NCBI RefSeq assembly: GCF_025699255.1 | Contig: NZ_JAILWA010000002.1 | Location: 99,985-131,984 of the forward strand | Length of the DNA: 32,000 bases | Source: Nitrosopumilus sp. | Lineage (GTDB): Archaea; Thermoproteota; Nitrososphaeria; Nitrososphaerales; Nitrosopumilaceae | Direction of reading: 5' to 3' | In this document: one piece after another, positions 7,832 through 22,519 of the stretch | How positions within the stretch are numbered: the first letter of the stretch is position 1 | Layout of the letters: every line of letters starts with the position of its first letter | Program-made: the position numbers and the translations under genes | The notes under the pieces: generated by a model | The model's database searches: none | What the model saw: only the letters and a program-made list of their open reading frames with translations | Told to the model about the DNA's origin: nothing

Positions 7832-8209
7832 TTATTCTTGTGTTGTTCCACATTCAGGACAGAATTTTGCAGTAGCAGAAAGACTCGTACCACATTCTGA
7901 ACAAAACTTTCCATCTGAAACTTGTTCGTTGAATGCATTTCCAACTAGTGTTGAACTCTTGACTGCACCTGATGGAACATATTTTTCATCATCAATCAAA
8001 ACTGGTTCAAAGTCTTGCTCTACCAAATATGTCATCATTCGTGGAACTCCTTTTCCTTCATTCTTTGGATCTGGAACTGAATCTCCTAACCAGAATGCAA
8101 ATCTCATTAGAGTCAACTCTGGAGTAGAAAATGCAAGAGTATGCTTTGACATGTAATCTTGTGCAGCTTTTTTGCCGTCAAAACCTTCCATGATGATAAT
8201 ATTTTGCAT
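7832..8209 (-). CDS. hypothetical protein with C-terminal double zinc ribbon
   Basis: 125-aa ORF ending in FCSECGTSLSATAKFCPECG. It is the last core gene before the island. Confidence 0.65.
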   Translation of the reverse strand: MQNIIIMEGFDGKKAAQDYMSKHTLAFSTPELTLMRFAFWLGDSVPDPKNEGKGVPRMMTYLVEQDFEPVLIDDEKYVPSGAVKSSTLVGNAFNEQVSDGKFCSECGTSLSATAKFCPECGTTQE

Positions 8210-8222
8210 TTATGTATAATAG

Positions 8223-8232
8223 TTTCTGGAAA
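8223..8232 (+). repeat. left copy of 10-bp direct repeat TTTCTGGAAA (candidate att core / target duplication)
   Basis: Identical 10-mer at 19903-19912, immediately next to the tRNA 3' end. A 10-bp match could be chance. Confidence 0.35.
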
Positions 8233-8322
8233 CTATTTTTGACTCCTCTGTAGGCACAAAACGTGGTATAAAACGTGATATTTAGCGTGACCTTAACAAA
8301 ATGATTTCATTTGGGAATATTC

Positions 8323-8336
8323 ATGAAATATTTCAT
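8323..8336. promoter_or_regulatory. perfect 14-bp palindrome ATGAAATATTTCAT nested between GGGAAT (8313-8318) and ATTCCC (8335-8340)
   Basis: Read directly; the sequence equals its own reverse complement. It lies in the non-coding left end of the island. Confidence 0.6.
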
Positions 8337-8460
8337 TCCCATGTTTTTTCATTACATAAATATGCCAAAAATCTTATTTTAAGAGTTCATTTTATGATCA
8401 TTTTTTTCGTGAACACATACATTTGTAAAATAACCATTTTTTATTTTTCTATGCCCACAA

Positions 8461-8595
8461 AAATGGAAAATGTGAACCCACAAAATAATTCACACACTTA
8501 AAAAAATGAAAATGAAAACCATTTTGAAAAATAAAAATGAATGAGGAAAATGGTTTTATGTAAAATGACAGGATATATCATTTTTTATAGAAATG
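8461..8595 (+). repeat. iteron-like cluster of same-strand AAATG/AAAATGRAA motifs
   Basis: Eight AAATG copies on one strand start at 8461, 8468, 8504, 8510, 8535, 8548, 8563 and 8591. Three inverted CATTT copies lie nearby. Confidence 0.5.
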
Positions 8596-8636
8596 GAATG
8601 ATCAGAATAATGTCCGATGGTGTGGATCCCTTAAGT

Positions 8637-8815
8637 CATTCTGAACAAATTTCTTAGGCTTTTCATGCTGTCGGACATTGACATTACAAGAAATAACGAT
8701 ATTGTGAAAAATTGTACAAATCAACTCCAAATTGACGCTTAATGCATCATTTTGAGGCAACATTGTATCCGTAAGATTTTAAAACTAACATGAGAATCAT
8801 TTTTTGTTCAGAATG
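8637..8815. repeat. perfect 13-bp inverted repeat CATTCTGAACAAA (8637-8649) / TTTGTTCAGAATG (8803-8815)
   Basis: Read directly. It is part of a set of TCAGAATG/CATTCTGA sites upstream of the integrase. Confidence 0.7.
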
Positions 8816-8880
8816 GCATTGGGAATGAGTCTAAATCAATTCGTATCAAATCACGATACAATCAATTCCATTCTGAGGGA

Positions 8881-10242
8881 GTGGAATACTTGGTCAATAT
8901 ACTAAATGCAAAAATTCCATCCTCTCATTCAAGATTTGATGACAATGTTACACCAAAAATAGATATTCAGAATGAAATTTTGAAATTATTAAAAATAAAA
9001 CCTCACACACCTACTGAACTAGCAAATCATTTTCATCAAACAAGAGAACAATTTTCAAAAAGTCATATCTATCCTCTACGAGATTCTAAAAAAATTGAAA
9101 AGGTTAATGGCTCTCATTATTATCAATTAGCAAAGCAAAAAAATACAATTCTTACAATTCAAAAACAGTTACGCTCAGAATCAGATATTTTCAAGACAGA
9201 GTTATTCAAAAATTGGACTAGAAAAAACCATGCCAAATTTGAACATAACAATCAGACACGTTTTGCTAGAATTGTACTGGGGTTTGTGACTCCAAAATTC
9301 AAAATTCATCCTGATGACATTACCAAAGAAAACTGGAAAGAAATCATTCCAAGTATGGTTGATGCCTTAATAGAAGTTGCAAATTATGAAGTAGTAGATG
9401 GTGAACCAAACTGGTCAAACAGACAGGCAATAAGACACGCCCTAAAATATGGACTTGGAATAGACATTAGTAAAGACGAAGGAATTGAATTAAGAATAAG
9501 CGGACAGAAACCAAAAGAAAAATCATCAGATTTGCACATCACACCTGAACAAATCACACAAGCTAAAAAATTACTGTTGAAACATTATTCCATTGAAGAC
9601 TATCTAAAATTTGGAGTCAAGACATGGACTTTTGTCAGACCATCAACAGTTTATTTAATAGAATTGGCAAAAATGGAGTTCATTGATCAGTTAGTTGAAT
9701 ATGTGGAAGATACAGACGGTGTAAAATTAACCGATGAAAAAGTTGTAGCATATGCAAAATTTAGAGGTGATAAAATCTACTCTTATGTTAGAAGAATATG
9801 CCACATTGAAGTCCATGAAAACAAAACCCATGATGATTTTGATAAATACATTTTGGATTCTGAATTTGTTGAACCATTAGAACAATTTTACAATACCAGA
9901 GTATCTAGAGGAAAAAAATATCTATTTTGGGAAGATAATGATACTAAATTTGAATCTAAAACATATGATAGAATTTTGACTAGTTCAGTAGCTCGAGATA
10001 ACAAATTTTTCAAAAAAATTCTATCTATGATAGGTTTTAAGAAATCAGATTTTGGAATTTATTTTAGAGCCAATTATGGTTTTAGACATTTCGGAATCCA
10101 GATGTGGCTTATTGCAACTGACTACAATTACAATTTAGTTTCTGAAATGTCTCATGAAGGTACTGAAACCTTGAAAAAATGGTACGGAAAAAGAACACAG
10201 AAGGATTTCCAGAGAAAAATTAAAGGTGTGATTATGAATTGA
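8881..10242 (+). CDS. int: tyrosine recombinase / integrase with N-terminal winged-helix region
   Basis: Catalytic-domain pattern seen by eye: FVRPSTVYLIELAKMEF (Arg box), VHENKTHDDFDKYI (beta-hairpin Lys), NYGFRHFGIQMWL (x-x-x-R-H box) and MSHEGTETLKKWYGK (His...Tyr nucleophile). There is no in-frame ATG near the 5' end, so the GTG at 8881 is the likely start. Confidence 0.8.
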   Translation: MEYLVNILNAKIPSSHSRFDDNVTPKIDIQNEILKLLKIKPHTPTELANHFHQTREQFSKSHIYPLRDSKKIEKVNGSHYYQLAKQKNTILTIQKQLRSESDIFKTELFKNWTRKNHAKFEHNNQTRFARIVLGFVTPKFKIHPDDITKENWKEIIPSMVDALIEVANYEVVDGEPNWSNRQAIRHALKYGLGIDISKDEGIELRISGQKPKEKSSDLHITPEQITQAKKLLLKHYSIEDYLKFGVKTWTFVRPSTVYLIELAKMEFIDQLVEYVEDTDGVKLTDEKVVAYAKFRGDKIYSYVRRICHIEVHENKTHDDFDKYILDSEFVEPLEQFYNTRVSRGKKYLFWEDNDTKFESKTYDRILTSSVARDNKFFKKILSMIGFKKSDFGIYFRANYGFRHFGIQMWLIATDYNYNLVSEMSHEGTETLKKWYGKRTQKDFQRKIKGVIMN

Positions 10243-10326
10243 TGATAATCTTTTATTATTAATTGTCAAAATTTGGTTCAATTTTAGTTGGGAGCACGTT
10301 GAAGGGGGGGATATAGTTAGGGACGA

Positions 10327-10342
10327 AGATTTTGCACTAAAT
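10327..10342 (+). promoter_or_regulatory. 16-nt motif AGATTTTGCACTAAAT, copy 1
   Basis: 15/16 identical to 11407-11422. It ends 68 nt before the ATG at 10411. Confidence 0.55.
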
Positions 10343-10410
10343 CCTAAAATTCAGAATTATGAGAAATCATCTAAAGAATATCTTAAATTATTAACAGAAT
10401 ACTATGAAAT

Positions 10411-11400
10411 ATGTCTGAAGATAAAAAAATTAACATCAAAGACTACTTGCCTAAAAGAAATCCTGATTCCAAATTATGGAATAAAGTTCAACAACTATCT
10501 AAGAAAGAGGATGGAGTGATTGAAGCCATAGACATAATTTTCAAGCAACAGTATGAACTACCAGAAGACAGCATAGAATTAATAAAAAAACTTGCTAAAA
10601 AAGAACAATCAAAAAATGTGAGACTACACATCGCAAAAAATCTTGAAAAATATGATCACATTCCATTTGGTATGTATGCAGATCTGTTTGACATTCTTTC
10701 AAATGATCCTGATCATGAGGTACAAGAACCCCTTAAAAATACGTCATTATACAAACTTGGAGAAAGTTTTCTAGATGGGTTTAAAAAAATACAGCCAGAA
10801 TCACTTACAAATTCACTGAAATTACTCTCACAAAAACAGGAAGAGGTAACAAACGCACTTCAGCCTTTCTTAAAAATTCATGATACTAAAATGGTGAAAC
10901 AAATTACTCAGATGCAAAAAGTGTTAGAAACAATAAACTTAGACAAAATCAAAATCCCAAAGATTTCGTTTGATATTGATAATGCATTACTAAAAGAGTT
11001 AGAAAAATCTAAACCTGAAGGATTTAGTGTTGATACTATACTTACAAAAGCTGCTGAGGCTAAACCCGAAATCAAAGAAGCAGTAGAATCAAAAAACAAT
11101 ATAGAGATAGCTCATAAAACATTAGATGACGTATCTGATCAAATAGAATCATTACAAAAAACTACTGAAAGAAATTTCAAAGATGTAGGAGACAAACAAG
11201 AAGAGCACCATACAGAACAGATGGCTGAGCATCAAAAAACTCGTGATGAATTATTGATAGACAATGGTAAATTACAAGAAAAAGTTGACACACTACAAGA
11301 AAAAGTCCAGAACAGTTGGAAAGAACCACGAAATTGGTCTATAGGATTTGCCATTTCCATAATAGCAAGTCTAGTAATATGGGCAATACAGAGTTTTTAG
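10411..11400 (+). CDS. hypothetical HEAT-like / coiled-coil protein with C-terminal membrane anchor
   Basis: 329-aa ORF with HEAT-like segments (VRLHIAKNLEKY, LSNDPDHEVQE) and a long K/E/Q-rich helical region. The C-terminal hydrophobic helix is WSIGFAISIIASLVIWAIQSF. Confidence 0.65.
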   Translation: MSEDKKINIKDYLPKRNPDSKLWNKVQQLSKKEDGVIEAIDIIFKQQYELPEDSIELIKKLAKKEQSKNVRLHIAKNLEKYDHIPFGMYADLFDILSNDPDHEVQEPLKNTSLYKLGESFLDGFKKIQPESLTNSLKLLSQKQEEVTNALQPFLKIHDTKMVKQITQMQKVLETINLDKIKIPKISFDIDNALLKELEKSKPEGFSVDTILTKAAEAKPEIKEAVESKNNIEIAHKTLDDVSDQIESLQKTTERNFKDVGDKQEEHHTEQMAEHQKTRDELLIDNGKLQEKVDTLQEKVQNSWKEPRNWSIGFAISIIASLVIWAIQSF

Positions 11401-11406
11401 TCGCTC

Positions 11407-11422
11407 AGATTTTGCGCTAAAT
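11407..11422 (+). promoter_or_regulatory. 16-nt motif AGATTTTGCGCTAAAT, copy 2
   Basis: 15/16 identical to 10327-10342. It ends 69 nt before the ATG at 11492. Confidence 0.55.
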
Positions 11423-11491
11423 ATGTAAATAAAAAATGAGGATTTGGTATGTCTAGATAAAATTTTATTCTCAAGTTCTTGGAAAAAAACA

Positions 11492-12595
11492 ATGAGAGAG
11501 AAAATAGAAGTAGAGATTTTATGGACATTGAAATCCTCCCCTTCTCATGTTTTGAGTACTTTGGACATGGTTGAGAAAAATAATCGATTAGAAATTAATG
11601 ATGATTTAAAAGAAAAACTTCGATTCTTAGCTGAAGAAAAAATCATCGACACGCGAGTTATTCAAGGAAGAGGAATACATTATCTTATCACAAAAAAAGG
11701 GAATGATTTGATTTGGAATGGTTCAACTTGGCAACAAATTTTTAATTTAATTAATTTGATTCATCCAGAAAAATATACGGGTAAAGAAATAGTCAGAATA
11801 ATCAAAAAACCTGAAGAGGAAGTGTGGAAAGGAATTGAATATTTGAGAAATGTTCGCAAGTATATTGATGCTTTTGATGAAAACAATGAACGATATTGGA
11901 TCCTTTCAGAAAAAGGGGAAGAACACTCTATTGATAAAAATACTAAAAACTTGGATGAAAACATTAATCCTGAAAAAGAATATCAAAATGGAAAATCAAT
12001 ACATACACACATCTCTCAAAATCCAAAAAGTTATTGGAATGAACACAAACCGATGATCTTACTTTCCATATTCATTACCATTGGTGGAGGTCTTTTGGTA
12101 GGAGGATTTTTTTATTATTTGGCATTATATGACGAAGAATCAGATATTTCCAAACCAGAAATTCAGGTAACTGATTTGAATGCACTTGGAGGGATTGTTG
12201 AAGGAAACAAACTGTATTATTCATACGAACCTACAAGTTTAACTCCAAACGGAACCAAAGATGAAATATTTACCCTCAAAATATCAAATACTGGAAAAGC
12301 CAATGCTGATGATTTTTGGATAGATATGTATTCTGAGCCTCAGGGTTTGTGGTTTGATTTCCAAACTTCAGCAACAATCCAAGACGGTAACAGCATACCG
12401 TGTCAACAAAAAAAGTCGTATTGTACTATTGGATTAGTACCCAAAGAATCTAGCAATATGTTTGTGGAGTACAAAGTCCAGTTTAATCATAAATTATATC
12501 AAGAAATTGCAGATGAAAATCCAAGATTATTTTTCAATTATGGTTTTGATGAGGGACAGGAACAAACTATTGAAATAATTTTGAAATTTGATTAA
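11492..12595 (+). CDS. hypothetical membrane-tethered protein with two winged-helix-like N-terminal modules, one TM helix and a beta-rich C-terminal domain
   Basis: The ORF track starts at TTG 11444, but the first ATG (11492, MREKIEVEILW) is more plausible. wHTH-like segments are EILWTLKSSPSHVLST...IHYLITKKG and TGKEIVRIIKKPEEEVWKGIEYL...YWILSEKG. The TM helix is MILLSIFITIGGGLLVGGFFYYLALY. Confidence 0.65.
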   Translation: MREKIEVEILWTLKSSPSHVLSTLDMVEKNNRLEINDDLKEKLRFLAEEKIIDTRVIQGRGIHYLITKKGNDLIWNGSTWQQIFNLINLIHPEKYTGKEIVRIIKKPEEEVWKGIEYLRNVRKYIDAFDENNERYWILSEKGEEHSIDKNTKNLDENINPEKEYQNGKSIHTHISQNPKSYWNEHKPMILLSIFITIGGGLLVGGFFYYLALYDEESDISKPEIQVTDLNALGGIVEGNKLYYSYEPTSLTPNGTKDEIFTLKISNTGKANADDFWIDMYSEPQGLWFDFQTSATIQDGNSIPCQQKKSYCTIGLVPKESSNMFVEYKVQFNHKLYQEIADENPRLFFNYGFDEGQEQTIEIILKFD

Positions 12596-12662
12596 TACTT
12601 AGGTTTAGCATACTATTTGACATAACCTTCTCTTTAAGAAGAAGAACGGGTTTCATTTCATA

Positions 12663-13697
12663 TTGGATGAAATTGAAGAAAGCGAATGGTATTTGCTACA
12701 AAACTATCGTGAGCGAATTTTGCCATTAAGGGGAATTCTTCTAAATCTTGATTTTACATCCATTGAAAAATATGATGAGGGTACTTTGGAACTCTTTATT
12801 CGTGGTGGAAAAAAGAAAATTAAATTCAATGAAGAATCTGAAAAACAATTCAAATCGATCATACAAACCGACATTATTTCTAAACTGATGATGTTGGTAG
12901 AAGATGCAGTTATTTTTATGGAATCACGAAGACGAAATGTCAGTTTTTACAGTATTGTTACAAATTCGGACATAGATGTAGGACTTGTGATCAAAGAATT
13001 TTTTGAAAATCTTGAGAAATTATCCACAAATGAACTATGGGAAATAATGAGTTATGTTGACGTCAATTCCACAAATTGGGAAACTTCTGAAGATGCACGT
13101 CTAGTTGAAAAGTATCTTACAATCAACATCTCTGAAATGCGTCGATTGTTATCAGAACTAAAAGAATTTAGCACTACTAATCACCCTCTGTTTAAAAGAT
13201 TCAAGCATGCAGGATTTCCTGTATTTCCAGCTGTGAACTCTCCCAAATCACTTGATTTTATGAAAAATTTTGATCATTGCTCAGCTGTACTTATGAAAGA
13301 AAATATTTTGGATGATGTTGTGTATGTTCCATATTCTGATGATGTAATTAAATCATATCACATTATTGCATCAGGACTTCAAAAGATCATTCATGACATA
13401 GTAAATAACAGAATAATTACAATTGAACGACAAACCAGTGGAATGTTGCCAAACGTTTCGCATGATTCAGAAAAACTCAGTGTTGAAGAATGGAATAGAT
13501 ATGGTGAAATTAGAAAAAAATTTTATGAGCAAAACCCATTACGAAATGATCTTCCTAGAACTCTCAATTTGCCAAAACCTGATAAAGAAAATATGAAGTG
13601 GTATTGTGGATTAGATGATTTCTTAACTAGAAGTATTCAGTTTAAGGAATCTCAAAACAAAGAGATGTACAGGTTAAATGCCTCTACTGATTATTGA
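12663..13697 (+). CDS. hypothetical protein (344 aa, no recognisable domain)
   Basis: Long uninterrupted ORF with a coding-like composition. It needs a TTG start because there is no early in-frame ATG. Confidence 0.6.
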   Translation: MDEIEESEWYLLQNYRERILPLRGILLNLDFTSIEKYDEGTLELFIRGGKKKIKFNEESEKQFKSIIQTDIISKLMMLVEDAVIFMESRRRNVSFYSIVTNSDIDVGLVIKEFFENLEKLSTNELWEIMSYVDVNSTNWETSEDARLVEKYLTINISEMRRLLSELKEFSTTNHPLFKRFKHAGFPVFPAVNSPKSLDFMKNFDHCSAVLMKENILDDVVYVPYSDDVIKSYHIIASGLQKIIHDIVNNRIITIERQTSGMLPNVSHDSEKLSVEEWNRYGEIRKKFYEQNPLRNDLPRTLNLPKPDKENMKWYCGLDDFLTRSIQFKESQNKEMYRLNASTDY

Positions 13698-13706
13698 CGA
13701 GGTATT

Positions 13707-13928
13707 TCACACTAGATCCAATAGTTTTTTCAAAGTTTTTTCTTTTAACTTCAGTGGAATTTTATATTCTAACTTCTTTTTGAGATAAAAAAACATTCTT
13801 CTAGAAATTCCAAGTTCCAATGCTTTCTCCAAAGTTAATTCCTCAATTATTTCTCGCAATCTCTTTTGAAAATTCACATACTGAATGGTATTTTCTTTGA
13901 ATGCTCCCAATACCTCAGATTGCTCCAT
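13707..13928 (-). CDS. small helix-turn-helix-like protein
   Basis: 73 aa. LEKALELGISRRMFFYLKKKLE resembles an HTH DNA-binding segment. The frame stays open for a further 37 codons upstream without a start codon. Confidence 0.5.
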   Translation of the reverse strand: MEQSEVLGAFKENTIQYVNFQKRLREIIEELTLEKALELGISRRMFFYLKKKLEYKIPLKLKEKTLKKLLDLV

Positions 13929-14022
13929 CTCGTTTGATTCCTTACCAATATAATGAATTGAAGATTCATCAATTTCAAGCCATTTTCTACTTAAAAGCCA
14001 GATTTCACCGTCTGATTTGGTA

Positions 14023-14187
14023 TCATTGTGCCTGACATACTCTGAAAATACTTAATTCATAGGCTTCCAGTATTCCTTTGAATCCATAGAATCTTTGTTT
14101 GGATAGCTTCTCCCTGTTTTGTACTCTAGAAATTCTTGGTATTGTACTAGATCCATTTTGTGGTTTTGGCGGATTTGAAAAATTCAT
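14023..14187 (-). CDS. small ORF (54 aa), possibly the N-terminal part of a frameshifted gene continuing into 13707-13928
   Basis: Hand translation gives MNFSNPPKPQNGSSTIPRISRVQNREKLSKQRFYGFKGILEAYELSIFRVCQAQ. Its 3' end overlaps the open upstream extension of the HTH ORF in another frame. Confidence 0.3.
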   Translation of the reverse strand: MNFSNPPKPQNGSSTIPRISRVQNREKLSKQRFYGFKGILEAYELSIFRVCQAQ

Positions 14188-14303
14188 AATTTAATCGTCC
14201 TTTTAAGTCAGAATTACCATGTTATATTGAGACGCAAGATCATGACCGTCACGTCATAGAATCTTGTCAAGTGTGACGGCTTGTGTTTCTTTTTTAAAAA
14301 AAA

Positions 14304-14435
14304 TTATTGTGGTACAAATGTTTGGCATTCGCACACTAATCCATTAGGCAATGTCTTTGAACATTTACCTTCAGCAGGATGATCTTTTCTGAAATGTTCA
14401 CAACTTGTATTGTCGCATATGTCGTAATCTCCCAT
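14304..14435 (-). CDS. Cys-rich micro-protein (43 aa)
   Basis: Hand translation gives MGDYDICDNTSCEHFRKDHPAEGKCSKTLPNGLVCECQTFVPQ. It has five Cys plus His residues, and a T-run follows the stop codon. Confidence 0.4.
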   Translation of the reverse strand: MGDYDICDNTSCEHFRKDHPAEGKCSKTLPNGLVCECQTFVPQ

Positions 14436-14875
14436 ATTTTGTCAATTCTTATCTTTAGATTTTAATCTGGGGCATGATACAATAACCCGATCAAATAGAG
14501 ATCTGTTAGATGTAGCATTATGAACCCTGATTCTGTTAACTAATCTTTGAGATAACTAGGATCCAAGGAAATTGAGCATTTGGATACCTTTGAGTGAGAT
14601 AACAGTTTATTCATAAAATATTTGGAGAAAAGAAACACTACACTAAAAATCACAATTATTCAAAACAAGATTTCAGATATTGGTAAAATCAAACCTAAAA
14701 TAAAACAGATTGATCTTAATGCAGACAGAAATAGAATGTGGCTTGATAAAATTAGAAATATAAATAACAAAAAGCTTGATTGATTCATACCGATTACAGT
14801 CAATCATTTTAATTTGAATATAATGTAACAAAAAATGAAATAAATAACTTATACTAGTTTTATGACAAACATTTT

Positions 14876-15781
14876 ATGAATAAAATGAATTTAGTCATTC
14901 TGATTTTTTTGTCTGTTTTTAATATGATTGGAATCTTTCCTACAATTGATGCACAAATCCTAGAACCTGAATGTATTAATCCAGATGGAAAACGTGAATT
15001 AGATTTGAGATTTGATACAGGAGTTCAGGAATTTAATGAATTAACAAAAGAATCCGTACTGACTTTGGATTGGAGACTAAAAGATGGTTTTGGAATATCA
15101 AAACCATTTGATGTTGTTTCACGAGTACATCCTGGTAGTGGGGCATCCATATACAATGTTACTGCTGCTCATGAAGGTGCAGATTATTCAATAACTGTTA
15201 GAGATACAGAGCATCATATCAATCCATTACATGTTGTTCCTGAACATCTTTGGCCTTTTGAATCCTATAGCATCCCTGCATTTTTGGAAATTAATGATGA
15301 TGTGAAACTATGTGGATGGGATTTTGAAGGCCATAAATTTGGATTTTTTGCAGAAAATCCAAACTGGAAAGTCACATTAATTGCCTCTGAAAGCTCATTT
15401 GAAGAAATGTCAAAAATATTAGAAGGGGGAAGACCAAGATTTGAAAACAATACCATCGTGAAATTTGATACTCAAATTTCACATAGTGATGAATACATTT
15501 CAAAATATTTTCTGTATGGCATTATTCCATTCTTCCCAATGTTGTTAATCTTTGCACATTTCAAATATCTACGTCATGAAAGACCAATTTTACAAATTAC
15601 CTATTTTACAGGAGTTTCGGTGTTGATTTTGACCGGATTAATTGCAGTAGGTTCAACCATTGTTTCACTAACTCTATTAGAGATCATCACTCTTTCTAGT
15701 ATCCCTGTTTACATTGTATCATTTGTAATTACATTAAGAAAAGTAGTTAAAAAGAAAAATTTTGAAAAGGCACATTTTTGA
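14876..15781 (+). CDS. hypothetical secreted/membrane protein (signal peptide, ~190-aa extracytoplasmic domain, C-terminal TM helices)
   Basis: The signal-like N-terminus is MNLVILIFLSVFNMIGIFPTIDAQ. C-terminal hydrophobic helices include YGIIPFFPMLLIFAHF, ITYFTGVSVLILTGLIAVGSTIV and ITLSSIPVYIVSFVITL. Confidence 0.7.
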   Translation: MNKMNLVILIFLSVFNMIGIFPTIDAQILEPECINPDGKRELDLRFDTGVQEFNELTKESVLTLDWRLKDGFGISKPFDVVSRVHPGSGASIYNVTAAHEGADYSITVRDTEHHINPLHVVPEHLWPFESYSIPAFLEINDDVKLCGWDFEGHKFGFFAENPNWKVTLIASESSFEEMSKILEGGRPRFENNTIVKFDTQISHSDEYISKYFLYGIIPFFPMLLIFAHFKYLRHERPILQITYFTGVSVLILTGLIAVGSTIVSLTLLEIITLSSIPVYIVSFVITLRKVVKKKNFEKAHF

Positions 15782-15803
15782 ATGAGATGTAAAATTATGA
15801 AAT

Positions 15804-17195
15804 ATGACCCTAAATGATATCTTAATTGAATTAAAAGATATTTTTCATTCCATTGACATTCGAGTATTTGCACATAAATCTGATGGTGTGTGGAAAAATA
15901 TTTTTACAATTATTAGATTTAGACATGAAACGGTAGAAGAATTAAAAATAATTCATCAGGAATTGATTGAGAAATGTGGTAGTTTAATTGAAACAGACAA
16001 ATTCAGAGTAGGACTATTTAATTATCCTGTTGACAGATGGTCAAAAATTGCAGATGATTTATCCAAAAAATTTCTTTGTCTGAATGATTCATTTGGAATA
16101 AATTTTGATAATGCAATTACCTACAATCATAATTATTCAGATCCACATTTCAAGCCTGAAAATTATGTTTACAAAGATTGGAAATGCTTTTCATTTAACA
16201 ACGAATCAAATACACAAAAACCAAACTATTCAGATGAATTACGAAGTAATATGCTTGAAAATCATTTCAGGTATTCAGACAATTATTTGTCTGCAATATT
16301 TGAATATGGAAAATATGATTTTCAAAGTAATCCTTGGATCAAGACATTTGTGCCTATTTTCTTCAAAATTGAAAAAATTGAATTTGATCATGATAAAGTC
16401 GATATAGAATATTCTGCACATGAGCAAAAAAATATCCAAGTCGGATTAAATTTTTACAAATCTCGTGAATATAGAAGTGATGATGAATTTATCCAACAGA
16501 AAATTGAAAAAATACCGTTGACAGGGGGTTCAGAAGTAATTCAGGATACGATAACAATGAAACTTGATACAAAAAATGTTGGAGAATTTTTTGAGTTATT
16601 GGTAATAAAAAATAAAAAAACTTTGATTGAATCAAAAGAAGGATGCCTAGATGAGTATTGGAAAACAAGAACCGAATATACTAATCCCACATATTATGCA
16701 TTTGAACAATTTGTAGAGTTTGAAGAATTAGAACGAATGTTATTACAATTCAAATCTAAAAAGATCAACAGAGATTCTGAAGTCTTTGAACGTGGAGTAT
16801 CTTGGCTTTTGAGTTTACTTGGAATCCCAAACCTAATACTCGGGGAGTATGAACGATTGGGAAAGGGTCATGATCAAACATCTACTGATATTTTGGCAAG
16901 TTTTGACACAGATAAGATATTTTTGATAAATGTAACAATTGGCTTGCCTAAGCAATCTGATTTTGACAGAGAACGAGAATATCGGGAAAATATAGAAGGC
17001 AAAATCACTAACAAAAAAATAGAAATTCATTCAATCTACTTTACAGGAAAAGATGCTACCGAATCACTAGCATCTGCAACTGCAAATAATGTTATATTAG
17101 TAGGGAAAAACAATATTCAAAACATACTTGAGTATCTCAAAAAAGGTAATTTAGAAAAAGCTCGTCAAATTATTTTACAAGAGGATAGTTTTTGA
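15804..17195 (+). CDS. hypothetical 463-aa cytoplasmic protein with restriction-endonuclease-like (PD-(D/E)xK-like) C-terminal region (tentative)
   Basis: It starts 22 nt after the previous stop. The C-terminal segment FERGVSWLLSLLGIPN...TSTDILASFDTDKIFLINVTIG resembles the Mrr-type helix plus D...(D/E)xK strands, but the canonical Lys is not evident. Confidence 0.7.
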   Translation: MTLNDILIELKDIFHSIDIRVFAHKSDGVWKNIFTIIRFRHETVEELKIIHQELIEKCGSLIETDKFRVGLFNYPVDRWSKIADDLSKKFLCLNDSFGINFDNAITYNHNYSDPHFKPENYVYKDWKCFSFNNESNTQKPNYSDELRSNMLENHFRYSDNYLSAIFEYGKYDFQSNPWIKTFVPIFFKIEKIEFDHDKVDIEYSAHEQKNIQVGLNFYKSREYRSDDEFIQQKIEKIPLTGGSEVIQDTITMKLDTKNVGEFFELLVIKNKKTLIESKEGCLDEYWKTRTEYTNPTYYAFEQFVEFEELERMLLQFKSKKINRDSEVFERGVSWLLSLLGIPNLILGEYERLGKGHDQTSTDILASFDTDKIFLINVTIGLPKQSDFDREREYRENIEGKITNKKIEIHSIYFTGKDATESLASATANNVILVGKNNIQNILEYLKKGNLEKARQIILQEDSF

Positions 17196-17196
17196 A

Positions 17197-17865
17197 ATGA
17201 TCGACGGTAAAATAATTTCCCTTGCTTTGGCAATAACTAGTGGATTGGTCTATACTCGTGTCTTTGAGAATGAATTCTTTAAAGATATCATACTTGTTGC
17301 AATTCCTGCAATAATTGGATTGTTTGCAGTGAAACGTGTACCTAACGAATGGCAACAATATAGATTCAAGGTGGCTTTAAAAAAAGAAATTATAGACACA
17401 TTTGTAAAATCTGTTAAAAAAAGTTTTGTGGTTCATGATACTGCACATATACAATTAGTGCAACATTATTCTGTGTCAGAACAACCAATAGATCCAACCA
17501 CAGGAGGAGTTACACATAATGTAGTTTTTCCTACGGAACCAAATGAACAACCAATGATGGCATTAAAAGATGAATATAATGAATTTAAAAACGAACTCAA
17601 AGCAATAAAGTTAAACGGTGAAACATTAGTTTCAAAAATGCGATTATACTTTGATAGTGAATTGGTAGCCGAAGAATTTTCAAAACTGAATATTCAAGCT
17701 GGAAAATGTTCTCAATACATAAGACAAGGATTTGAATCTAAAAATAAAGAAAGTTTTTTAATGAATCTAAATGCTTTTTCTAACGAAGTAAAGTTATGGA
17801 GAGACTTATCTGATAAATTTGAAAATACTCTTGCCAAACATAAAATAAAAAAGATTTCAGTTTAA
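17197..17865 (+). CDS. hypothetical protein with two N-terminal TM helices and a helical cytoplasmic domain
   Basis: Its ATG lies 1 nt after the upstream stop, suggesting translational coupling. The TM helices are IISLALAITSGLVYTRVF and IILVAIPAIIGLFAV. Confidence 0.7.
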   Translation: MIDGKIISLALAITSGLVYTRVFENEFFKDIILVAIPAIIGLFAVKRVPNEWQQYRFKVALKKEIIDTFVKSVKKSFVVHDTAHIQLVQHYSVSEQPIDPTTGGVTHNVVFPTEPNEQPMMALKDEYNEFKNELKAIKLNGETLVSKMRLYFDSELVAEEFSKLNIQAGKCSQYIRQGFESKNKESFLMNLNAFSNEVKLWRDLSDKFENTLAKHKIKKISV

Positions 17866-18100
17866 TTTGTTAAAATGATTGAATGTTTTTTAACCATTAC
17901 AACAAATGTCATATTTTCATACTATTGGTTAAACTTTAGGATTATTTCATGTGCTTGTCCCTGCAAAAAATTTATTGTATGTATCAACTCAAGCCCGTTG
18001 TAATTTTTGTGCAAATGGATTTTACAAATTTAATGAAATGTAGAAAAATCGTGGTATTGGATATGATAATGAAAAGAAAATGGAAAATTGTGCGATTCTG

Positions 18101-18155
18101 TTCCAATCCAATCTGATTTGGTGTGGAATTGATTGGAAAAGAGGATTTGGATTGG
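18101..18155. promoter_or_regulatory. cluster of CCAATC / GATTGG repeats with alternative pairings
   Basis: TTCCAATC (18101-18108) is the perfect complement of GATTGGAA (18131-18138). CCAATCCAATC (18103-18113) nearly pairs with GATTTGGATTGG (18144-18155). The cluster lies 80-130 nt upstream of the protease start. Confidence 0.5.
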
Positions 18156-18233
18156 TATGAAGTTCAGAATGATGAAAAGTATGAACCCGAAAGCGATTTG
18201 TAAAGATATGTGTTTATAAAATATTCAAAACAA

Positions 18234-19109
18234 ATGATAATTGTCATGGTTAGTATAATTAAACAAATAAAAAAATCAGTTGGATTTATTTATGTCAAAA
18301 ATGGAAATGTGTTTCATCCAGCTGGAACTGGTTTTTTTGTTAGTGTAGCTACAGGTTATGATTCTTCCAAAAGTTATTTTTATTTTGTAACTGCAAAACA
18401 TGTAATTCAAAAAAAAGATGGAACATTTTATGATATTGCAGTTAGATTGAATACTTTTGATAATTCTTCCAATCTTCTTCCTTTGCCCATGAACCAATTA
18501 CATATCTTTACTCATGATGATGAAGATGTAGACATAGCTCTTTTTCCAATGATTCCAAATGAAAAAATATATGATATTTTAACAATAGGTTCCGACATAC
18601 TTAGTACAGAAAAAATTATCGAGGATGAAAAAATTGAAGAAGGTGGAGATGTATTATTTTCAGGATTATTTTCTAGCCATATTGGAAAACAACGAAATCA
18701 ACCAATAGTACGTTTTGGAAAAATATCTTTAATTTCTGATGAAAAAATCACTTGGAAGGTTGATGATGATCCGCCTAAACTAGTTGATTTGTATTTGATG
18801 GAATGTCAATCTTATGGAGGAAATAGTGGGTCTCCTGTTTTTTTTAAATTAGATAGATTTAGAGAATCTAGTGAAAACAAAATAAAGATGCATGAAAAAT
18901 ATTATCTTGCAGGAGTTATGACTGGAAGCTTTAATCAATCTAGAAAAATAGAGAATATTGAAACAATAAATGAACAATTTTCATGGCAAAATATTGGAAT
19001 TGCAGCAGTAACACCTGCTTACAAATTACATGATATTTTATTTTCAGATGAATTAAATAAAATTCGAAAGGATAATGATGATTTAGAAAATGCTAAGAAA
19101 AAAGTTTAG
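18234..19109 (+). CDS. trypsin-like (chymotrypsin-fold, S1-type) serine protease, no signal peptide
   Basis: Catalytic triad motifs are YFVTAKHVI (His), DVDIALF (Asp) and GGNSGSPVFF (Ser). The ORF track begins at GTG 18210, but ATG 18234 or 18246 is more likely. Confidence 0.8.
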   Translation: MIIVMVSIIKQIKKSVGFIYVKNGNVFHPAGTGFFVSVATGYDSSKSYFYFVTAKHVIQKKDGTFYDIAVRLNTFDNSSNLLPLPMNQLHIFTHDDEDVDIALFPMIPNEKIYDILTIGSDILSTEKIIEDEKIEEGGDVLFSGLFSSHIGKQRNQPIVRFGKISLISDEKITWKVDDDPPKLVDLYLMECQSYGGNSGSPVFFKLDRFRESSENKIKMHEKYYLAGVMTGSFNQSRKIENIETINEQFSWQNIGIAAVTPAYKLHDILFSDELNKIRKDNDDLENAKKKV

Positions 19110-19173
19110 ACAGAAAAATAGTTTTTCCCAGTACAAAATTCACATAAACTTTGAACTAGAATCTTAACAATGG

Positions 19174-19656
19174 TCATGGTAAAAGATCTTGTAGGTTTTC
19201 TATAGTTACAAAAGAAATTATTCCATAAGACATCAATACAAGAAACATCATCAAAATGGTGGGTTTTGCTTTTTTGATATCTTCTTTTTCTTCATCAGTC
19301 TTTCCAGTTTTAAAATAAAAATAAATGAACCAGCCTACAGAAAACAACATAATTCCACCTCCAAAAAGAGATTGTCCTAGTGGGTCTTTCATTAATAATT
19401 TTAAACCTACAATCGATGTAAGTGCAACTGGAATTAACACCTCCATAGATAAAATCAAAAATTTATTGACACCTTTTACATTCCGTATTGCCATTAGAAA
19501 TAATGCAATTCCAGTTAATCCTGCAGCTGGAACAAAATCCTTTATTTCAGAATCTAATTTTCTCCATTCTTCAATGAAAATATTTGAAGCATAAACATAA
19601 CCCATAATCCCTAAAATCATTAGAGATAAAATCAGGATTTTCTTTGGAGTTAACAC
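19174..19656 (-). CDS. hypothetical polytopic membrane protein
   Basis: 160 aa with about five hydrophobic helices. It has a GTG start as drawn and is the last ORF before the tRNA. Confidence 0.6.
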   Translation of the reverse strand: MLTPKKILILSLMILGIMGYVYASNIFIEEWRKLDSEIKDFVPAAGLTGIALFLMAIRNVKGVNKFLILSMEVLIPVALTSIVGLKLLMKDPLGQSLFGGGIMLFSVGWFIYFYFKTGKTDEEKEDIKKAKPTILMMFLVLMSYGIISFVTIENLQDLLP

Positions 19657-19902
19657 AATTGTATTGATGTAATGTTTGATCTTAAATCTTTACGACCGCC
19701 GTCATATTTTCATTCGTAAAAGGGGGACTTTGCCTTTTTACTCTTTGTCGATAATCTCTTTTGTATCTCTAAAAAATTCTAACATTATGTTTATGAACAA
19801 ATAATTACAAAATTATTATGACCACACTATATTTTTTAGATTTTTGTGTTAGATCTATCGATTCTCATATATGCTTTAAAATTAATAATCACGTTTCACA
19901 GA

Positions 19903-19912
19903 TTTCTGGAAA
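19903..19912 (+). repeat. right copy of 10-bp direct repeat TTTCTGGAAA
   Basis: Identical to 8223-8232. It lies 3 nt from the tRNA-Ala discriminator base. Confidence 0.35.
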
Positions 19913-19915
19913 AGG

Positions 19916-19987
19916 TGGACCGGGAGGGAATCGCACCCTCGACATCCTCGTTGCGAACGAGGCATTATACTCCTAAACCACCGGCCC
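19916..19987 (-). tRNA. tRNA-Ala(CGC): tRNA-Ala (anticodon CGC)
   Basis: The reverse complement is GGGCCGGTGGTTTAGGAGTATAATGCCTCGTTCGCAACGAGGATGTCGAGGGTGCGATTCCCTCCCGGTCCA. It has a 7-bp acceptor stem with the G3:U70 alanine identity pair, an A73 discriminator, and an anticodon stem CCTCG/CGAGG with loop TTCGCAA. The T stem is GAGGG/CCCTC, and CCA is not fully encoded. Confidence 0.9.
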
Positions 19988-21466: not shown

Positions 21467-21511
21467 CTTATTTGTAAATTTGATTTTTTACGATTGCTTT
21501 TTAAGAGAAAA

Positions 21512-22519
21512 ATGCAAATATTCTTCATGACTTTCCAATTTGTATTTCTTTTTTTTATGATTCTAGGTGTTGCTGTTAGTCCAATTTTACTAGAAAATTC
21601 TTTTGCTCAAGAAATATCTATACACCAACAATGGAAAAAATTTGCAGATGTTGACATGTTAACTTGTAAATCAGGACAATTGTTTTTACAAAAAAATAAT
21701 GGAAATCCTGCATGTGTAAAACCATCAACATATTTGAAATTAGTTGACAGAGGATATGGAATTCACAATCAATCAATAATGGATAAACATCCCGAAATGA
21801 TGACTCATTTAATGAATGGAATGGCATCAAATGAAAAAATAATGTATCATTGGCACGAGATGATGCAAAACAATCCTGCAATCATGAAAAATACTATGGA
21901 TGATTGGGTGTCTCAAATTAAAGAAAATCCTGAATTACTCAAAAATATGTTGGCTCCTATGACTAGTGAACCAGAATTGAGAGATAAGATGATTCAGATC
22001 ATGAAGAATCATCCTCAAATGGAAATCCACCTAAAATCAAATTCTGTTTGGATGGACTCTGTTCATCAGCCTGTAACTGATAGTATGGGACACGGTGATT
22101 CTGGAATGAGTTGCATGGGTGATGATAAATCTGGCATGGGACATGGTGATTCTGAGATGGGTTGTCCTATGTGTGAAAAAATGATGGAAAAAAAAAGATT
22201 AGATAATTGTTCTTGGTGTCCAAAGTATTCGCATTCAATGAATTCACATTCAACTAGTTTGCATACAATATCACATTCTGATAAAATGATGGATATGATT
22301 CATCATGTTTGGATAAATTCTGATATGACTAAAGACATGCATACTATGATGCTTGAGGATCCATCTCATATGGCAATGATGTCAAAACAAATGATTGAAC
22401 CCATGCTTAACACAATAATGGATGATGTAGATTTAAGAAATCAAATGATAGAATTAATGTTAGAACACAAAGATTTCATGAATTCTATCAGACATGACAA
22501 TCCTGACATATCACATTAG
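21512..22519 (+). CDS. secreted Met/His-rich protein (putative copper-binding)
   Basis: The ORF track starts at TTG 21494; ATG 21512 gives MQIFFMTFQFVFLFFMILGVAVSPILL as a signal/anchor. It contains dense M/H motifs and an internal repeat, MGHGDSGMSCMGDDKSGMGHGDSEMGCPMCEKMM. Confidence 0.7.
   Translation: MQIFFMTFQFVFLFFMILGVAVSPILLENSFAQEISIHQQWKKFADVDMLTCKSGQLFLQKNNGNPACVKPSTYLKLVDRGYGIHNQSIMDKHPEMMTHLMNGMASNEKIMYHWHEMMQNNPAIMKNTMDDWVSQIKENPELLKNMLAPMTSEPELRDKMIQIMKNHPQMEIHLKSNSVWMDSVHQPVTDSMGHGDSGMSCMGDDKSGMGHGDSEMGCPMCEKMMEKKRLDNCSWCPKYSHSMNSHSTSLHTISHSDKMMDMIHHVWINSDMTKDMHTMMLEDPSHMAMMSKQMIEPMLNTIMDDVDLRNQMIELMLEHKDFMNSIRHDNPDISH

What the first reader, a model, noticed from the sequence alone, without database searches (positions are those of the whole stretch)
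8210..19915. ~11.7 kb integrase-bearing island inserted between a core zinc-ribbon gene and the 3' end of tRNA-Ala(CGC)
Seen: a tyrosine recombinase lies at the left and the tRNA 3' end faces the island at the right. Every ORF in between is unrecognisable, while both flanks are recognisable core metabolism. Several island ORFs need GTG/TTG starts, and by eye the island is more AT-rich than the flanks. Established: archaeal integrative elements, including those catalogued in Thaumarchaeota, typically integrate at tRNA genes using tyrosine recombinases. No capsid, terminase or replication genes are recognisable, so it looks like a cryptic integrated element rather than a provirus.
Basis: partly seen in the sequence, partly recalled or inferred. 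Interest (0 to 1): 0.65.

Follow-up and report, generated by a model that had tools for sequence, protein, structure and literature searches.

The report
Integrase-bearing island beside tRNA-Ala in Nitrosopumilus
An 11.7-kb mobile element has inserted, through a very divergent integrase, into a 10-base site between a tRNA gene and its neighbour in a marine ammonia-oxidising archaeon; it is a real but fairly ordinary island, notable because its integration module is borrowed from a small virus-like element while its cargo looks like defence and membrane genes.

Summary
An 11,680-bp insertion (8233-19912) is flanked by a perfect 10-bp direct repeat, TTTCTGGAAA, at 8223-8232 and 19903-19912. It lies between a conserved zinc-ribbon gene and tRNA-Ala(CGC). 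In 41 of 80 related Nitrosopumilus genomes the two flanks are 23-39 bp apart and carry one copy of the repeat, so the empty site exists. GC is 30.3% in the island and 34.1% in the flanks.

The 450-aa "integrase" has no Pfam hit. Its predicted fold matches XerA, Cre and lambda Int. It keeps an R..K..YxxRH..H..Y signature. Profile searches link it to PF00589 proteins and to the integrase of the published Nitrososphaera DJR provirus NitEve-E7. The published att of NitGar-E1/E2 (TCCAGAAA) is the same core.

The site is next to the tRNA, not inside it. Relatives use the same core at non-tRNA sites. A related 13.3-kb contig is circular and carries the matching attP.

The window's cargo has no virus genes. 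It is a mosaic of membrane proteins and cassettes that elsewhere sit in defence-type islands.

Verdict: a cryptic integrated element, a new member of a known kind.

The parts
7832..8209 (-). Flanking core gene: 125-aa zinc-ribbon protein. Its start codon and TATA-like box lie just left of attL.
   Evidence: Pfam Zn_Ribbon_1, E 4e-8. Conserved in 73 of 80 related loci.
8223..8232 (.). attL core: left copy of the 10-bp direct repeat TTTCTGGAAA.
   Evidence: Single copy in empty sites. The same core is found at the junctions of related elements.
8233..8889 (+). Conserved non-coding leader of about 650 bp (the P arm of attP plus the integrase 5' region). It holds three CGTG(A/G) repeats at 8261, 8273 and 8285 with a 12-nt period, degenerate iteron-like repeats at about 8310-8390, and a TATA-like TTTTTTATAGAAAT at 8581-8594.
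   Evidence: Alignments of 7-11 elements. No Rfam family matches.
8611..8677 (+). Conserved hairpin in the leader (TGTCCGAT...GTCGGACA). It has many G-U pairs, which fits an RNA on the + strand.
   Evidence: 14 pairs, 97.6% of cells paired, 5 pairs with changes on both sides; 0-1 of 500 shuffles reach the observed values.
8890..10242 (+). Integrase: a 450-aa divergent tyrosine recombinase with an N-terminal winged-helix domain and a TTG start. The longest ORF begins at GTG 8881.
   Evidence: Family alignment A1 has invariant R253, K315, Y399, R402, H403, H425 and Y435. AF2 pLDDT is 86. The top 21 Foldseek hits are XerA, Cre and lambda Int. Transitive links reach PF00589 and the NitEve-E7 integrase.
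10411..11400 (+). Cargo: 329-aa protein, possibly coiled-coil, with a C-terminal membrane anchor.
   Evidence: Only weak Pfam and PHROG hits. TM-like segment at residues 311-329.
11444..13697 (+). Cargo: a two-gene cassette. The first gene encodes 383 aa (a winged helix by eye, plus one TM-like segment). The second encodes a 344-aa ORFan.
   Evidence: A 2.3-kb stretch (11453-13739) is 83% identical in DNA to L104. There it sits beside TIR_2, SLFN_AlbA_2, a metallo-beta-lactamase-fold protein and an SRA/AAA_5 protein.
13707..13928 (-). Cargo: 73-aa small protein, HTH-like by eye. It could be a regulator or an excision factor.
   Evidence: It is the only cargo gene shared with another element of the family (L085/L086, 67% identity). 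No family hit.
14876..15781 (+). Cargo: 301-aa membrane protein with an N-terminal hydrophobic segment and three C-terminal TM-like segments.
   Evidence: No family hit.
15804..17195 (+). Cargo: 463-aa three-domain protein. The C-terminal domain has a restriction-endonuclease-like fold.
   Evidence: 38 homologue clusters, none with a Pfam domain. AF2 pLDDT is 89. Foldseek matches 2p14 (R.BspD6I small subunit) and Cdn1. Homologues sit alone in other variable islands.
17197..17865 (+). Cargo: 222-aa protein with an N-terminal TM-like segment.
   Evidence: Weak similarity to an ORF outside the L084 element.
18210..19109 (+). Cargo: 299-aa trypsin-like serine protease.
   Evidence: Pfam Trypsin_2, E 8e-6, 27.1 bits against a cut-off of 27.6. 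PADLOC PDC-S45, E 5e-21, and LmuA, E 8e-11. phrog_7688, E 6e-16.
19174..19656 (-). Cargo: 160-aa protein with four TM-like segments.
19889..19902 (+). Right-arm motif TCACGTTTCACAGA next to the core. It is an inverted copy of the left-arm ACGTGA repeats.
   Evidence: Conserved as TCACGTTTTACTGT at the attP of circular L090.
19903..19912 (.). attR core: right copy of TTTCTGGAAA.
19914..19987 (-). Flanking tRNA-Ala(CGC). It is intact and is not part of the repeat.
   Evidence: ARAGORN. Rfam tRNA, 56.9 bits.

Best explanation
The segment 8233-19912 is a cryptic integrated mobile element of a Nitrosopumilus chromosome.

How it most likely got there: its own integrase (8890-10242) is a highly divergent tyrosine recombinase with an extra N-terminal winged-helix domain. 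It recombined a 10-bp core (TTTCTGGAAA) on a circular form of the element with the identical sequence in the chromosome. That chromosomal sequence lies in the 24-bp spacer between the 3' end of tRNA-Ala(CGC) and the start of a zinc-ribbon gene. The exchange left one core copy at each junction. It kept the tRNA and its T-rich trailer on one side and the TATA region of the zinc-ribbon gene on the other.

The integration module: it consists of the core, a conserved 650-bp leader with repeated CGTGA motifs, an inverted copy of that motif on the other arm, and the integrase. The same module is used by 13-kb virus-like episomes and proviruses of ammonia-oxidising archaea. In the window it carries an unrelated mosaic cargo of membrane proteins and cassettes that elsewhere sit in defence-type islands.

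Shown: the insertion, the repeat, the empty site, the fold, motifs and homology of the integrase, a circular relative with the matching attP, and the mosaic cargo.

Inferred: that the integrase is catalytically active, that the CGTGA repeats are its arm sites, that this copy can still excise, and that the cargo acts in defence.
For: Insertion and att sites:
- The empty site ...ATAATAGTTTCTGGAAAAGTGGACC... occurs in 41 of 80 related genomes.
- The core occurs only at the two junctions in the window.
- No island protein is found in any of the 80 loci.
- The composition shifts across the island.

Integrase:
- 67 homologue clusters, all unnamed.
- Invariant R253, K315, Y399, R402, H403, H425 and Y435, with R-to-H and H-to-Y spacings of 23 and 10 residues.
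- An AF2 model with pLDDT 86. Its 21 best PDB matches are XerA, Cre, Tre and lambda Int, with E down to 4.5e-5, probability 0.98-1.00 and 338-397 aligned columns.
- The family profile reaches P0169 at E 1.7e-13, and P0169 passes the PF00589 gathering score. 13 of 62 distant hits carry PF00589.
- The profile also reaches P0138 at E 2.9e-37; BLASTP to the window integrase gives 23% identity over 468 aa, E 3e-19. P0138 lies inside the published DJR provirus NitEve-E7 (PMC6563490 Table S2).
- The published att of NitGar-E1/E2 is TCCAGAAA, the reverse complement of the core here.

Related elements:
- Elements with 60-89% identical integrases carry the same core and leader. Some sit at the same site with different cargo (L081, L082/L083, L087, L088/L089). 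Others sit at other sites (L084, L085/L086).
- L090 has a 123-bp terminal overlap, so it reads as a 13,314-bp circle. Its attP is TCACGTTTTACTGT|TTTCTGGAAA|TAGTTTTTG...AGGCACAAAGCGTGG. This matches the junction obtained by joining the window's right and left ends.
Against: - No excised or circular form of this particular element was seen, and its own attP is only reconstructed.
- The integrase is not detected by Pfam, by a profile search of PDB sequences or by hhalign against Cre. The assignment rests on fold, motifs and transitive hits.
- TM-scores to solved recombinases are modest (0.30-0.49).
- A 10-bp core is short and should occur many times per genome, so what makes this site preferred is not explained.
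- The iteron-like repeats of the leader are degenerate in the window and in L081. That could mean partial decay.
- No replication function was identified. The defence role of the cargo rests on one PADLOC candidate hit, a nuclease-like fold and neighbourhood only.
Confidence: 0.85

Rival explanations
1. It is a degraded DJR-type provirus. On this view a 13-kb virus-like element of the L090/L084 type integrated here and later lost its ATPase, capsid and other morphogenesis genes by replacement with accessory cassettes. What remains is an immobile or only integrase-mobile remnant.
For: - The integrase, core and leader are homologous to those of L084, L088, L090, L092 and L093. Those elements share a syntenic module: a 171-aa protein, Dam, 285-aa and 150-aa proteins, a 213-aa ATPase and a 324-aa protein.
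- Their ATPase matches the ATPase-position gene of NitEve-E7.
- L088 occupies the same chromosomal site and carries virus-type genes.
- The leader iterons are degenerate in the window.
Against: - No fragment of any virus-module gene is detectable in the window by tblastn or blastp at E 1e-3 to 1e-4, nor by PHROGs.
- The integrase is intact with all signature residues, and the repeats are perfect.
- At least three other elements (L081, L082, L085) also combine this integrase module with unrelated non-viral cargo. That looks like a recurrent, functional arrangement rather than independent decay.
Confidence: 0.1
2. The island was inserted by a transposase- or casposase-like mechanism, and the 10-bp repeat is a target-site duplication.
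For: - The repeat is short (10 bp), and thaumarchaeal casposons are common in Nitrosopumilus (PMC6563490).
- The insertion lies outside the tRNA body.
Against: - There are no terminal inverted repeats beyond a 6-8-nt motif. There is no Cas1, PolB or DDE transposase in the island.
- The same core sequence is carried by the circular relative at its attP and is found at junctions in three different chromosomal contexts. A target-site duplication would vary with the target.
Confidence: 0.02
3. The region is ancestral and was deleted in relatives, so it is not an insertion.
For: Only species-level representatives were compared. The exact source genome was not found in the look-up.
Against: - 41 of 80 genomes across the genus have the two flanks 23-39 bp apart with a single clean copy of the core.
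- None of the 80 keeps any island gene.
- The island is flanked by a duplicated core and has a deviating composition.
Confidence: 0.01

Closest known systems
DJR-MCP proviruses NitGar-E1/E2 (Ca. Nitrososphaera gargensis) and NitEve-E7 (Ca. Ns. evergladensis), Krupovic et al. 2019 (PMC6563490)
   Same: - The integrase is homologous. The NitEve-E7 integrase AIF85415 is hit by the family profile at E 2.9e-37 and by BLASTP at 23% identity over 468 aa, E 3e-19.
- The att of NitGar-E1/E2, TCCAGAAA, is the reverse complement of the first 8 bases of the core here.
- Integration is intergenic.
- The paper already calls these integrases 'divergent'.
   Different: - The window element has no A32-like ATPase and no detectable capsid gene.
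- Its host is a marine Nitrosopumilus rather than a soil Nitrososphaera.
- Its cargo consists of membrane and defence-type cassettes.
Cryptic integrated elements (CIE) of Thaumarchaeota (same paper)
   Same: - The size (11.7 kb) is within the published range (median 17 kb).
- The att is short (the published range goes down to 8 bp).
- The integrase is the only conserved gene, most genes are ORFans, and the element sits in an intergenic site next to a tRNA.
   Different: - None of the 74 catalogued elements uses tRNA-Ala or this site, and no catalogued Nitrosopumilus element has this core.
- Most catalogued integrases are arCOG01245 or arCOG01242 XerC/D-like and readily recognised. This one is not.
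Classical tRNA-targeting integrative elements (lambda/P4/SSV-type tyrosine integrases)
   Same: - Site-specific recombination between identical short cores.
- The integrase gene lies next to attL.
- The element sits at the 3' side of a tRNA.
   Different: - The core does not overlap the tRNA, and no tRNA segment is duplicated.
- The integrase gene is not split on integration, unlike the SSV type.
- The integrase carries an N-terminal winged helix rather than a lambda-type arm-binding domain.
Bacterial defence islands and phage satellites (PICI, P4-like) that carry defence cargo
   Same: - An integrase-bearing island at a hotspot with mosaic cargo that includes candidate defence genes (PDC-S45-like protease; cassettes that neighbour TIR, Schlafen, SRA and AIPR genes elsewhere).
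- The integration module is shared with a virus-like element.
   Different: - There is no evidence of helper dependence, packaging signals or interference.
- The host is archaeal.
- None of the cargo genes is a validated defence gene.

Membership tests
Tyrosine recombinase superfamily | Conserved catalytic signature: Arg I, Lys, His/Tyr-x-x-Arg II, His/Trp III and the Tyr nucleophile, in the canonical order and spacing. | tested here: met
   R253, K315, Y399, R402, H403, H425 and Y435 are invariant in 34 sequences. Distant relatives keep R, K, RH, W and Y.
Tyrosine recombinase superfamily | Direct match to the curated family model (Pfam PF00589 Phage_integrase). | tested here: not met
   No hit for the window protein at E <= 0.1 or for any of 34 family members at E <= 10. 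A profile search against PDB sequences also found none. hhalign against Cre was not significant.
Tyrosine recombinase superfamily | Homology by transitive profile search to proteins that do pass PF00589. | tested here: met
   The A1 profile hits P0169 at E 1.7e-13, and P0169 scores 34.4 bits on PF00589 against a cut-off of 27.1. 13 of 62 distant hits match PF00589.
Tyrosine recombinase superfamily | Two-domain fold: a core-binding domain plus a catalytic domain. | tested here: met
   AF2 pLDDT is 86. The top 21 Foldseek PDB hits are all XerA, Cre, Tre or lambda Int, with probability 0.98-1.00 and 338-397 aligned columns. TM-scores are only 0.30-0.49.
Tyrosine recombinase superfamily | Catalysis of strand exchange through a 3'-phosphotyrosine intermediate. 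| not testable with these tools
   Needs biochemistry.
Site-specifically integrated element (attL/attR) | Identical direct repeats at both junctions, matching a single copy at the empty site. | tested here: met
   TTTCTGGAAA at 8223-8232 and 19903-19912. A single copy is present in empty sites of 41 of 80 genomes.
Site-specifically integrated element (attL/attR) | A circular form carrying attP. | tested here: inconclusive
   Seen for a relative: L090 has a 123-bp terminal overlap and an attP that matches the window's joined ends. Not seen for this element, because no reads were available.
tRNA-gene-targeting integrative element | The att core overlaps the tRNA gene, so that part of the tRNA is duplicated at the distal junction. 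| tested here: not met
   The core ends 1-3 nt before the tRNA 3' end, and there is no tRNA fragment at attL. Relatives integrate at sites with no adjacent tRNA.
Thaumarchaeal DJR-MCP provirus | A32-like (FtsK-HerA) packaging ATPase. | tested here: not met
   No island ORF matches the 213-aa ATPase of L084, L090 and L092 or the L103 gene. No PHROG or Pfam ATPase hit.
Thaumarchaeal DJR-MCP provirus | Double jelly-roll major capsid protein. | tested here: inconclusive
   No sequence similarity to the 324-326-aa protein in the capsid position of relatives. Only one cargo protein (463 aa) was modelled, and it is not a jelly-roll capsid. The other ORFans were not modelled.
Thaumarchaeal DJR-MCP provirus | Integrase and att core of the lineage. 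| tested here: met
   Homology to the NitEve-E7 integrase. The core equals the published TCCAGAAA att of NitGar-E1/E2.
Casposon / DNA transposon | Terminal inverted repeats, a Cas1 or transposase gene, and a target-dependent duplication. | tested here: not met
   No long terminal inverted repeats. No Cas1, PolB or DDE hit. The repeat is element-borne.
Anti-phage defence island | Presence of validated defence systems. | tested here: inconclusive
   Only a candidate was found: PADLOC PDC-S45, E 5e-21, and an LmuA-like protease domain. The other nine proteins have no PADLOC hit. Support from neighbourhood comes from L082, L101 and L104.

The most novel reading that the evidence does not exclude
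The island, together with its sisters L081, L082 and L085, could be a satellite-like hitchhiker of the 13-kb DJR-type virus-like elements of Nitrosopumilaceae. On this reading it keeps only the virus's integrase, attP core and 650-bp leader, which may hold the origin or packaging and arm sites, so that it can be excised, replicated or packaged by a co-resident helper. Meanwhile it carries anti-viral cargo. That would be an archaeal counterpart of bacterial PICI or P4-type defence-carrying satellites.
Probability: 0.1. Interest if true: 0.8.

Novelty: new member of a known kind. Interest (0 to 1): 0.42.

Why it matters
The island fits a class that is already catalogued (cryptic integrated elements of ammonia-oxidising archaea). 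Three things make it useful.

- It gives a fully delimited example, with an empty site, attL, attR and a matching attP in a circular relative. The integrase family involved is invisible to Pfam and annotated only as 'hypothetical protein', so such islands are missed by integrase-based screens.
- It shows that one integration module (the core TTTCTGGA, a 650-bp leader and the integrase) is shared between virus-like 13-kb elements and non-viral cargo islands. It also ties marine Nitrosopumilus elements to the published soil Nitrososphaera DJR proviruses.
- It marks the zinc-ribbon/tRNA-Ala spacer as a variable hotspot whose cargo could be mined for archaeal defence genes.

A small, precisely defined integrase-att pair from a cultivable genus could also serve as a genetic tool.

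Tried and rejected
- Pfam, NCBIfam, PHROGs and PADLOC on all ten island proteins. Almost nothing was found: only the protease, plus weak hits that were not used.
- A profile search of PDB sequences with the integrase family gave only a weak MarR-like winged helix at the N-terminus.
- hhalign of the family against Cre was not significant, although the best local alignment puts R253 on Cre R173.
- A scan of IMG/VR viral contigs for integrase relatives found none.
- tblastn of the integrase and of the putative capsid of L090 against GenBank phages found none.
- An exact look-up of the window's integrase, to find the source genome, found nothing on record with either start.
- A search for a longer att or a partial tRNA copy at the left end found none.
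- Rfam on the island found only the tRNA.
- The sigma-70 promoter and terminator scan is not applicable to archaea and was ignored.
- I considered that the 463-aa, 222-aa and protease genes form one operon-type system. This was rejected for the 463-aa gene, because its homologues occur without the other two.
- The small ORF 8301-8501 in the leader was rejected as a gene. It is conserved only with the nearest relative, and the leader alignment has indels that are not multiples of three.

Full report
**1. The observation**

ARAGORN finds one tRNA in the window, tRNA-Ala(CGC), at 19914-19987 on the minus strand. Its 3' end points into the proposed island; Rfam agrees. Sliding-window GC drops from about 0.35 to about 0.30 between roughly 8 and 20 kb.

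With the final boundaries the island has GC 0.303 and the flanks 0.341 (Mann-Whitney p = 4e-4 on 1-kb windows). Its tetranucleotide distance to the flank profile is 0.20-0.245, against 0.12-0.14 outside. GC3 of the genes does not differ, which fits an element long resident in this lineage.

The flanks are ordinary conserved genes: thioredoxin, zinc-ribbon proteins, an amidohydrolase, Memo, AMMECR1 and radical SAM. The ten island proteins give almost no family hits.

**2. Empty site and exact boundaries**

I used the amidohydrolase next to the tRNA to fetch 80 loci from Nitrosopumilus and related genomes. The flanking genes are present in 64-80 of these loci. No island protein is present in any of them.

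In 41 loci the zinc-ribbon gene start and the tRNA 3' end are only 23-39 bp apart. The spacer there reads ...TATAATAGTTTCTGGAAAAGTGGACC.... In the window the left junction is ...TATAATAG-TTTCTGGAAA-CTATTTTTGAC and the right junction is ...CACGTTTCACAGA-TTTCTGGAAA-AGGTGGACC.

The 10-mer TTTCTGGAAA occurs exactly twice in the window, at 8223-8232 and 19903-19912; 0.37 copies are expected by chance. The insertion is therefore 11,680 bp.

The duplicated core lies 1-3 nt outside the tRNA, and no tRNA fragment is duplicated. Integration keeps the T-rich trailer of the tRNA on one side and the TATA-like region of the zinc-ribbon gene on the other. That last point is read from the sequence; the functional consequence is inferred.

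**3. The integrase**

The ORF at 8881/8890-10242 has no Pfam, NCBIfam, PHROG or PADLOC hit. It has 67 homologue clusters of about 450 aa, all unnamed.

The evidence that it is a tyrosine recombinase is as follows.
- An alignment of 34 members has invariant R253, K315, Y399, R402, H403, H425 and Y435. This is the order expected for a tyrosine recombinase, and the 23- and 10-residue spacings are close to those I recall for lambda Int, XerD and Cre (own knowledge).
- None of the 34 members hits PF00589, even at E <= 10. Several show an N-terminal ArsR/MarR-type winged helix.
- An AlphaFold model built on the alignment has pLDDT 86.4. Its 21 best PDB matches are all tyrosine recombinases: archaeal XerA at E 4.5e-5, then Cre, Tre and lambda Int. 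Probabilities are 0.98-1.00 over 338-397 columns. TM-scores are modest, which I attribute to differing domain orientation (my interpretation).
- A profile search of 1.84 billion representatives finds only 111 clusters, so the family is small.
- Of 62 distant full-length hits, 13 carry PF00589. P0169, hit at E 1.7e-13, passes the Pfam gathering score.

I conclude that the protein belongs to the tyrosine recombinase superfamily, in a divergent clade with an N-terminal winged helix. The direct Pfam test fails, and I report that as such.

**4. Link to published elements**

Hit P0138 (profile E 2.9e-37; BLASTP 23% identity over 468 aa, E 3e-19) is AIF85415 of Ca. Nitrososphaera evergladensis SR1. 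It maps to CP007174 positions 2,811,763-2,813,286. That lies inside NitEve-E7 (2,809,293-2,824,438), one of the three DJR-capsid proviruses described by Krupovic et al. 2019 (PMC6563490, Table S2).

[quoted passage not shown] It lists the att of NitGar-E1/E2 as TCCAGAAA, intergenic and in tandem. That is the reverse complement of TTTCTGGA.

The paper also reports that thaumarchaeal att sites are short, down to 8 bp. None of its 74 elements uses tRNA-Ala, and none of its Nitrosopumilus elements has this core.

**5. The family of elements**

I examined the contexts of integrase homologues.
- Same chromosomal site as the window, with integrases 73-89% identical: L081 (a Nitrosarchaeum MAG), L082/L083, L087 and L088/L089. 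Where cargo is visible it differs from the window's. L082 carries HEPN_AbiV, HNH, KwaA and DUF5615 genes.
- Different sites, with no tRNA adjacent: L085/L086 lies upstream of an aspartate-semialdehyde dehydrogenase gene, and L084 lies next to a cadherin-repeat gene.

At every visible left junction the element begins with TTTCTGGA(A/T), followed by a conserved non-coding leader of about 650 bp. The leader contains:
- three CGTGA-type repeats with a 12-nt period (8261, 8273 and 8285 in the window);
- four iteron-like TAGGTAnnnnCAT repeats whose centre is specific to each element; these are degenerate in the window and in L081;
- a TATA-like box (8581-8594);
- a hairpin (8611-8677) with 14 pairs, 97.6% of cells paired and 5 pairs changed on both sides, with 0-1 of 500 shuffles reaching the observed values; its many G-U pairs indicate an RNA on the integrase strand;
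- a second hairpin just before a conserved TTG start codon.

The right end of the window element carries an inverted copy of the CGTGA motif directly next to the core, TCACGTTTCACAGA at 19889-19902.

**6. A circular relative**

Contig L090 (13,437 bp; integrase 70% identical) has a 123-bp terminal direct overlap. It therefore reads as a 13,314-bp circle. Its core is flanked by ...GTCACGTTTTACTGT on one side and TAGTTTTTG...AGGCACAAAGCGTGG on the other. This is the attP expected from joining the window's right and left ends.

L090, L084, L092, L093 and L088 share a syntenic set of genes after the integrase: a 171-178-aa protein, a Dam methylase, 285-aa and 150-aa proteins, a 213-aa P-loop ATPase, a small ORF, a 324-326-aa protein and others. 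The ATPase and the small ORF match the corresponding genes of NitEve-E7, at E 1e-14 and 3e-8. I infer that these are marine DJR-type virus-like elements. The capsid assignment rests on gene position only. They are absent from IMG/VR and from GenBank phages.

**7. The window's cargo**

No window ORF matches any gene of that virus module. The cargo has these features.
- Five of the ten proteins have TM-like segments.
- The 299-aa trypsin-like protease matches the PADLOC candidate PDC-S45 (E 5e-21) and the LmuA protease region.
- The 463-aa protein models well (pLDDT 89). It has an Ig-like middle domain and a C-terminal domain resembling the small subunit of R.BspD6I and the nuclease Cdn1. Its homologues occur singly in other variable islands: beside a DDE transposase and an AIPR gene in L101, and in an island with a standard PF00589 integrase in L102.
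- The 383-aa plus 344-aa pair is a 2.3-kb cassette, 83% identical in DNA to L104. There it lies beside TIR_2, Schlafen/AlbA_2, metallo-beta-lactamase-fold and SRA/AAA_5 genes.
- The 73-aa HTH-like ORF is the only cargo gene shared with another family member, L085.

The cargo is thus a mosaic of accessory cassettes of the kind found in defence-type islands. A defence function is an inference.

**8. Mechanism**

The best-supported reading is classical site-specific recombination. A circular element carrying attP (core TTTCTGGAAA between an arm with one inverted CGTGA motif and an arm with three direct ones) recombined with the identical chromosomal 10-mer. The reaction was catalysed by the element's own tyrosine recombinase. 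The winged helix may read the arm repeats.

A transposon-type target duplication is excluded, because the core is element-borne and the same at different sites. Ancestral presence with loss in relatives is excluded by the empty sites. A degraded DJR provirus cannot be excluded. It is disfavoured because the integrase and repeats are intact and because the same module recurs with other non-viral cargo.

**9. Hotspot**

The same spacer is occupied by other DNA in at least ten further species representatives. Three loci carry 0.2-0.3 kb, four carry 0.9-2.9 kb, and three carry more than 9.8 kb of non-syntenic sequence. One of these, L018, duplicates the tRNA 3' end and so uses a different att.

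**10. Verdict**

This is a real, precisely bounded cryptic integrated element and a new member of a known kind.

Interest is moderate. The added value is the unannotated integrase family, the module shared between virus-like and cargo-only elements, and a variable hotspot with candidate archaeal defence genes.

Noticed in passing
L090:1-13437 (metagenome contig Ga0114931_10007366): A 123-bp terminal overlap indicates a circular 13,314-bp element. It carries the integrase, attP, a Dam methylase, an A32-like ATPase and a 326-aa protein in the capsid position. It is probably a marine Nitrosopumilus DJR-type virus or plasmid. L084 is an integrated copy of the same type in a 2.25-Mb genome. Nothing similar is present in IMG/VR or GenBank phages.
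   Followed up: partly
L016, L018, L042, L051, L032, L073, L077, L015, L045, L078 (the spacer homologous to window 8210-19913): The zinc-ribbon/tRNA-Ala spacer holds other insertions in other species, from 0.2 kb to more than 9.8 kb. L018 has a duplicated tRNA 3' end (GTGGACCGGG), so a different element with a tRNA-overlapping att also uses this spot. L018 and L051 share a similar right end.
   Followed up: partly
window 8611-8677 and 8864-8892: There is a conserved hairpin with compensatory changes and many G-U pairs in the integrase leader. A second hairpin sits just before a TTG start codon that is conserved in nine elements. Together these suggest a structured 5' UTR that controls integrase expression.
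   Followed up: partly
window 8300-8400; the same region in L082, L084, L085, L088, L090, L091 and L092: Most elements carry four iteron-like repeats, TAGGTAnnnnCAT, whose central bases are the same within an element but differ between elements. In the window and its closest relative L081 these repeats are degenerate.
   Followed up: no
window 25000-27500: A second low-GC stretch (0.28-0.30) covers a HisKA/HATPase histidine kinase (25194-26441, minus strand) and two small minus-strand ORFs. It might be another variable region.
   Followed up: no
window 21494-22519: A 341-aa protein rich in His and Met (by eye) has no Pfam hit. Only 28 of 80 related loci keep a detectable homologue next to the amidohydrolase, so this flank gene is itself variable.
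   Followed up: no
L082:6067-12069 and L104:2821-11888: Sister islands carry recognisable defence-type genes. L082 has HEPN_AbiV, HNH and KwaA. L104 has TIR_2, Schlafen/AlbA_2 and an SRA/AAA_5 McrB-like giant. These Nitrosopumilaceae islands may be a source of archaeal defence systems.
   Followed up: no
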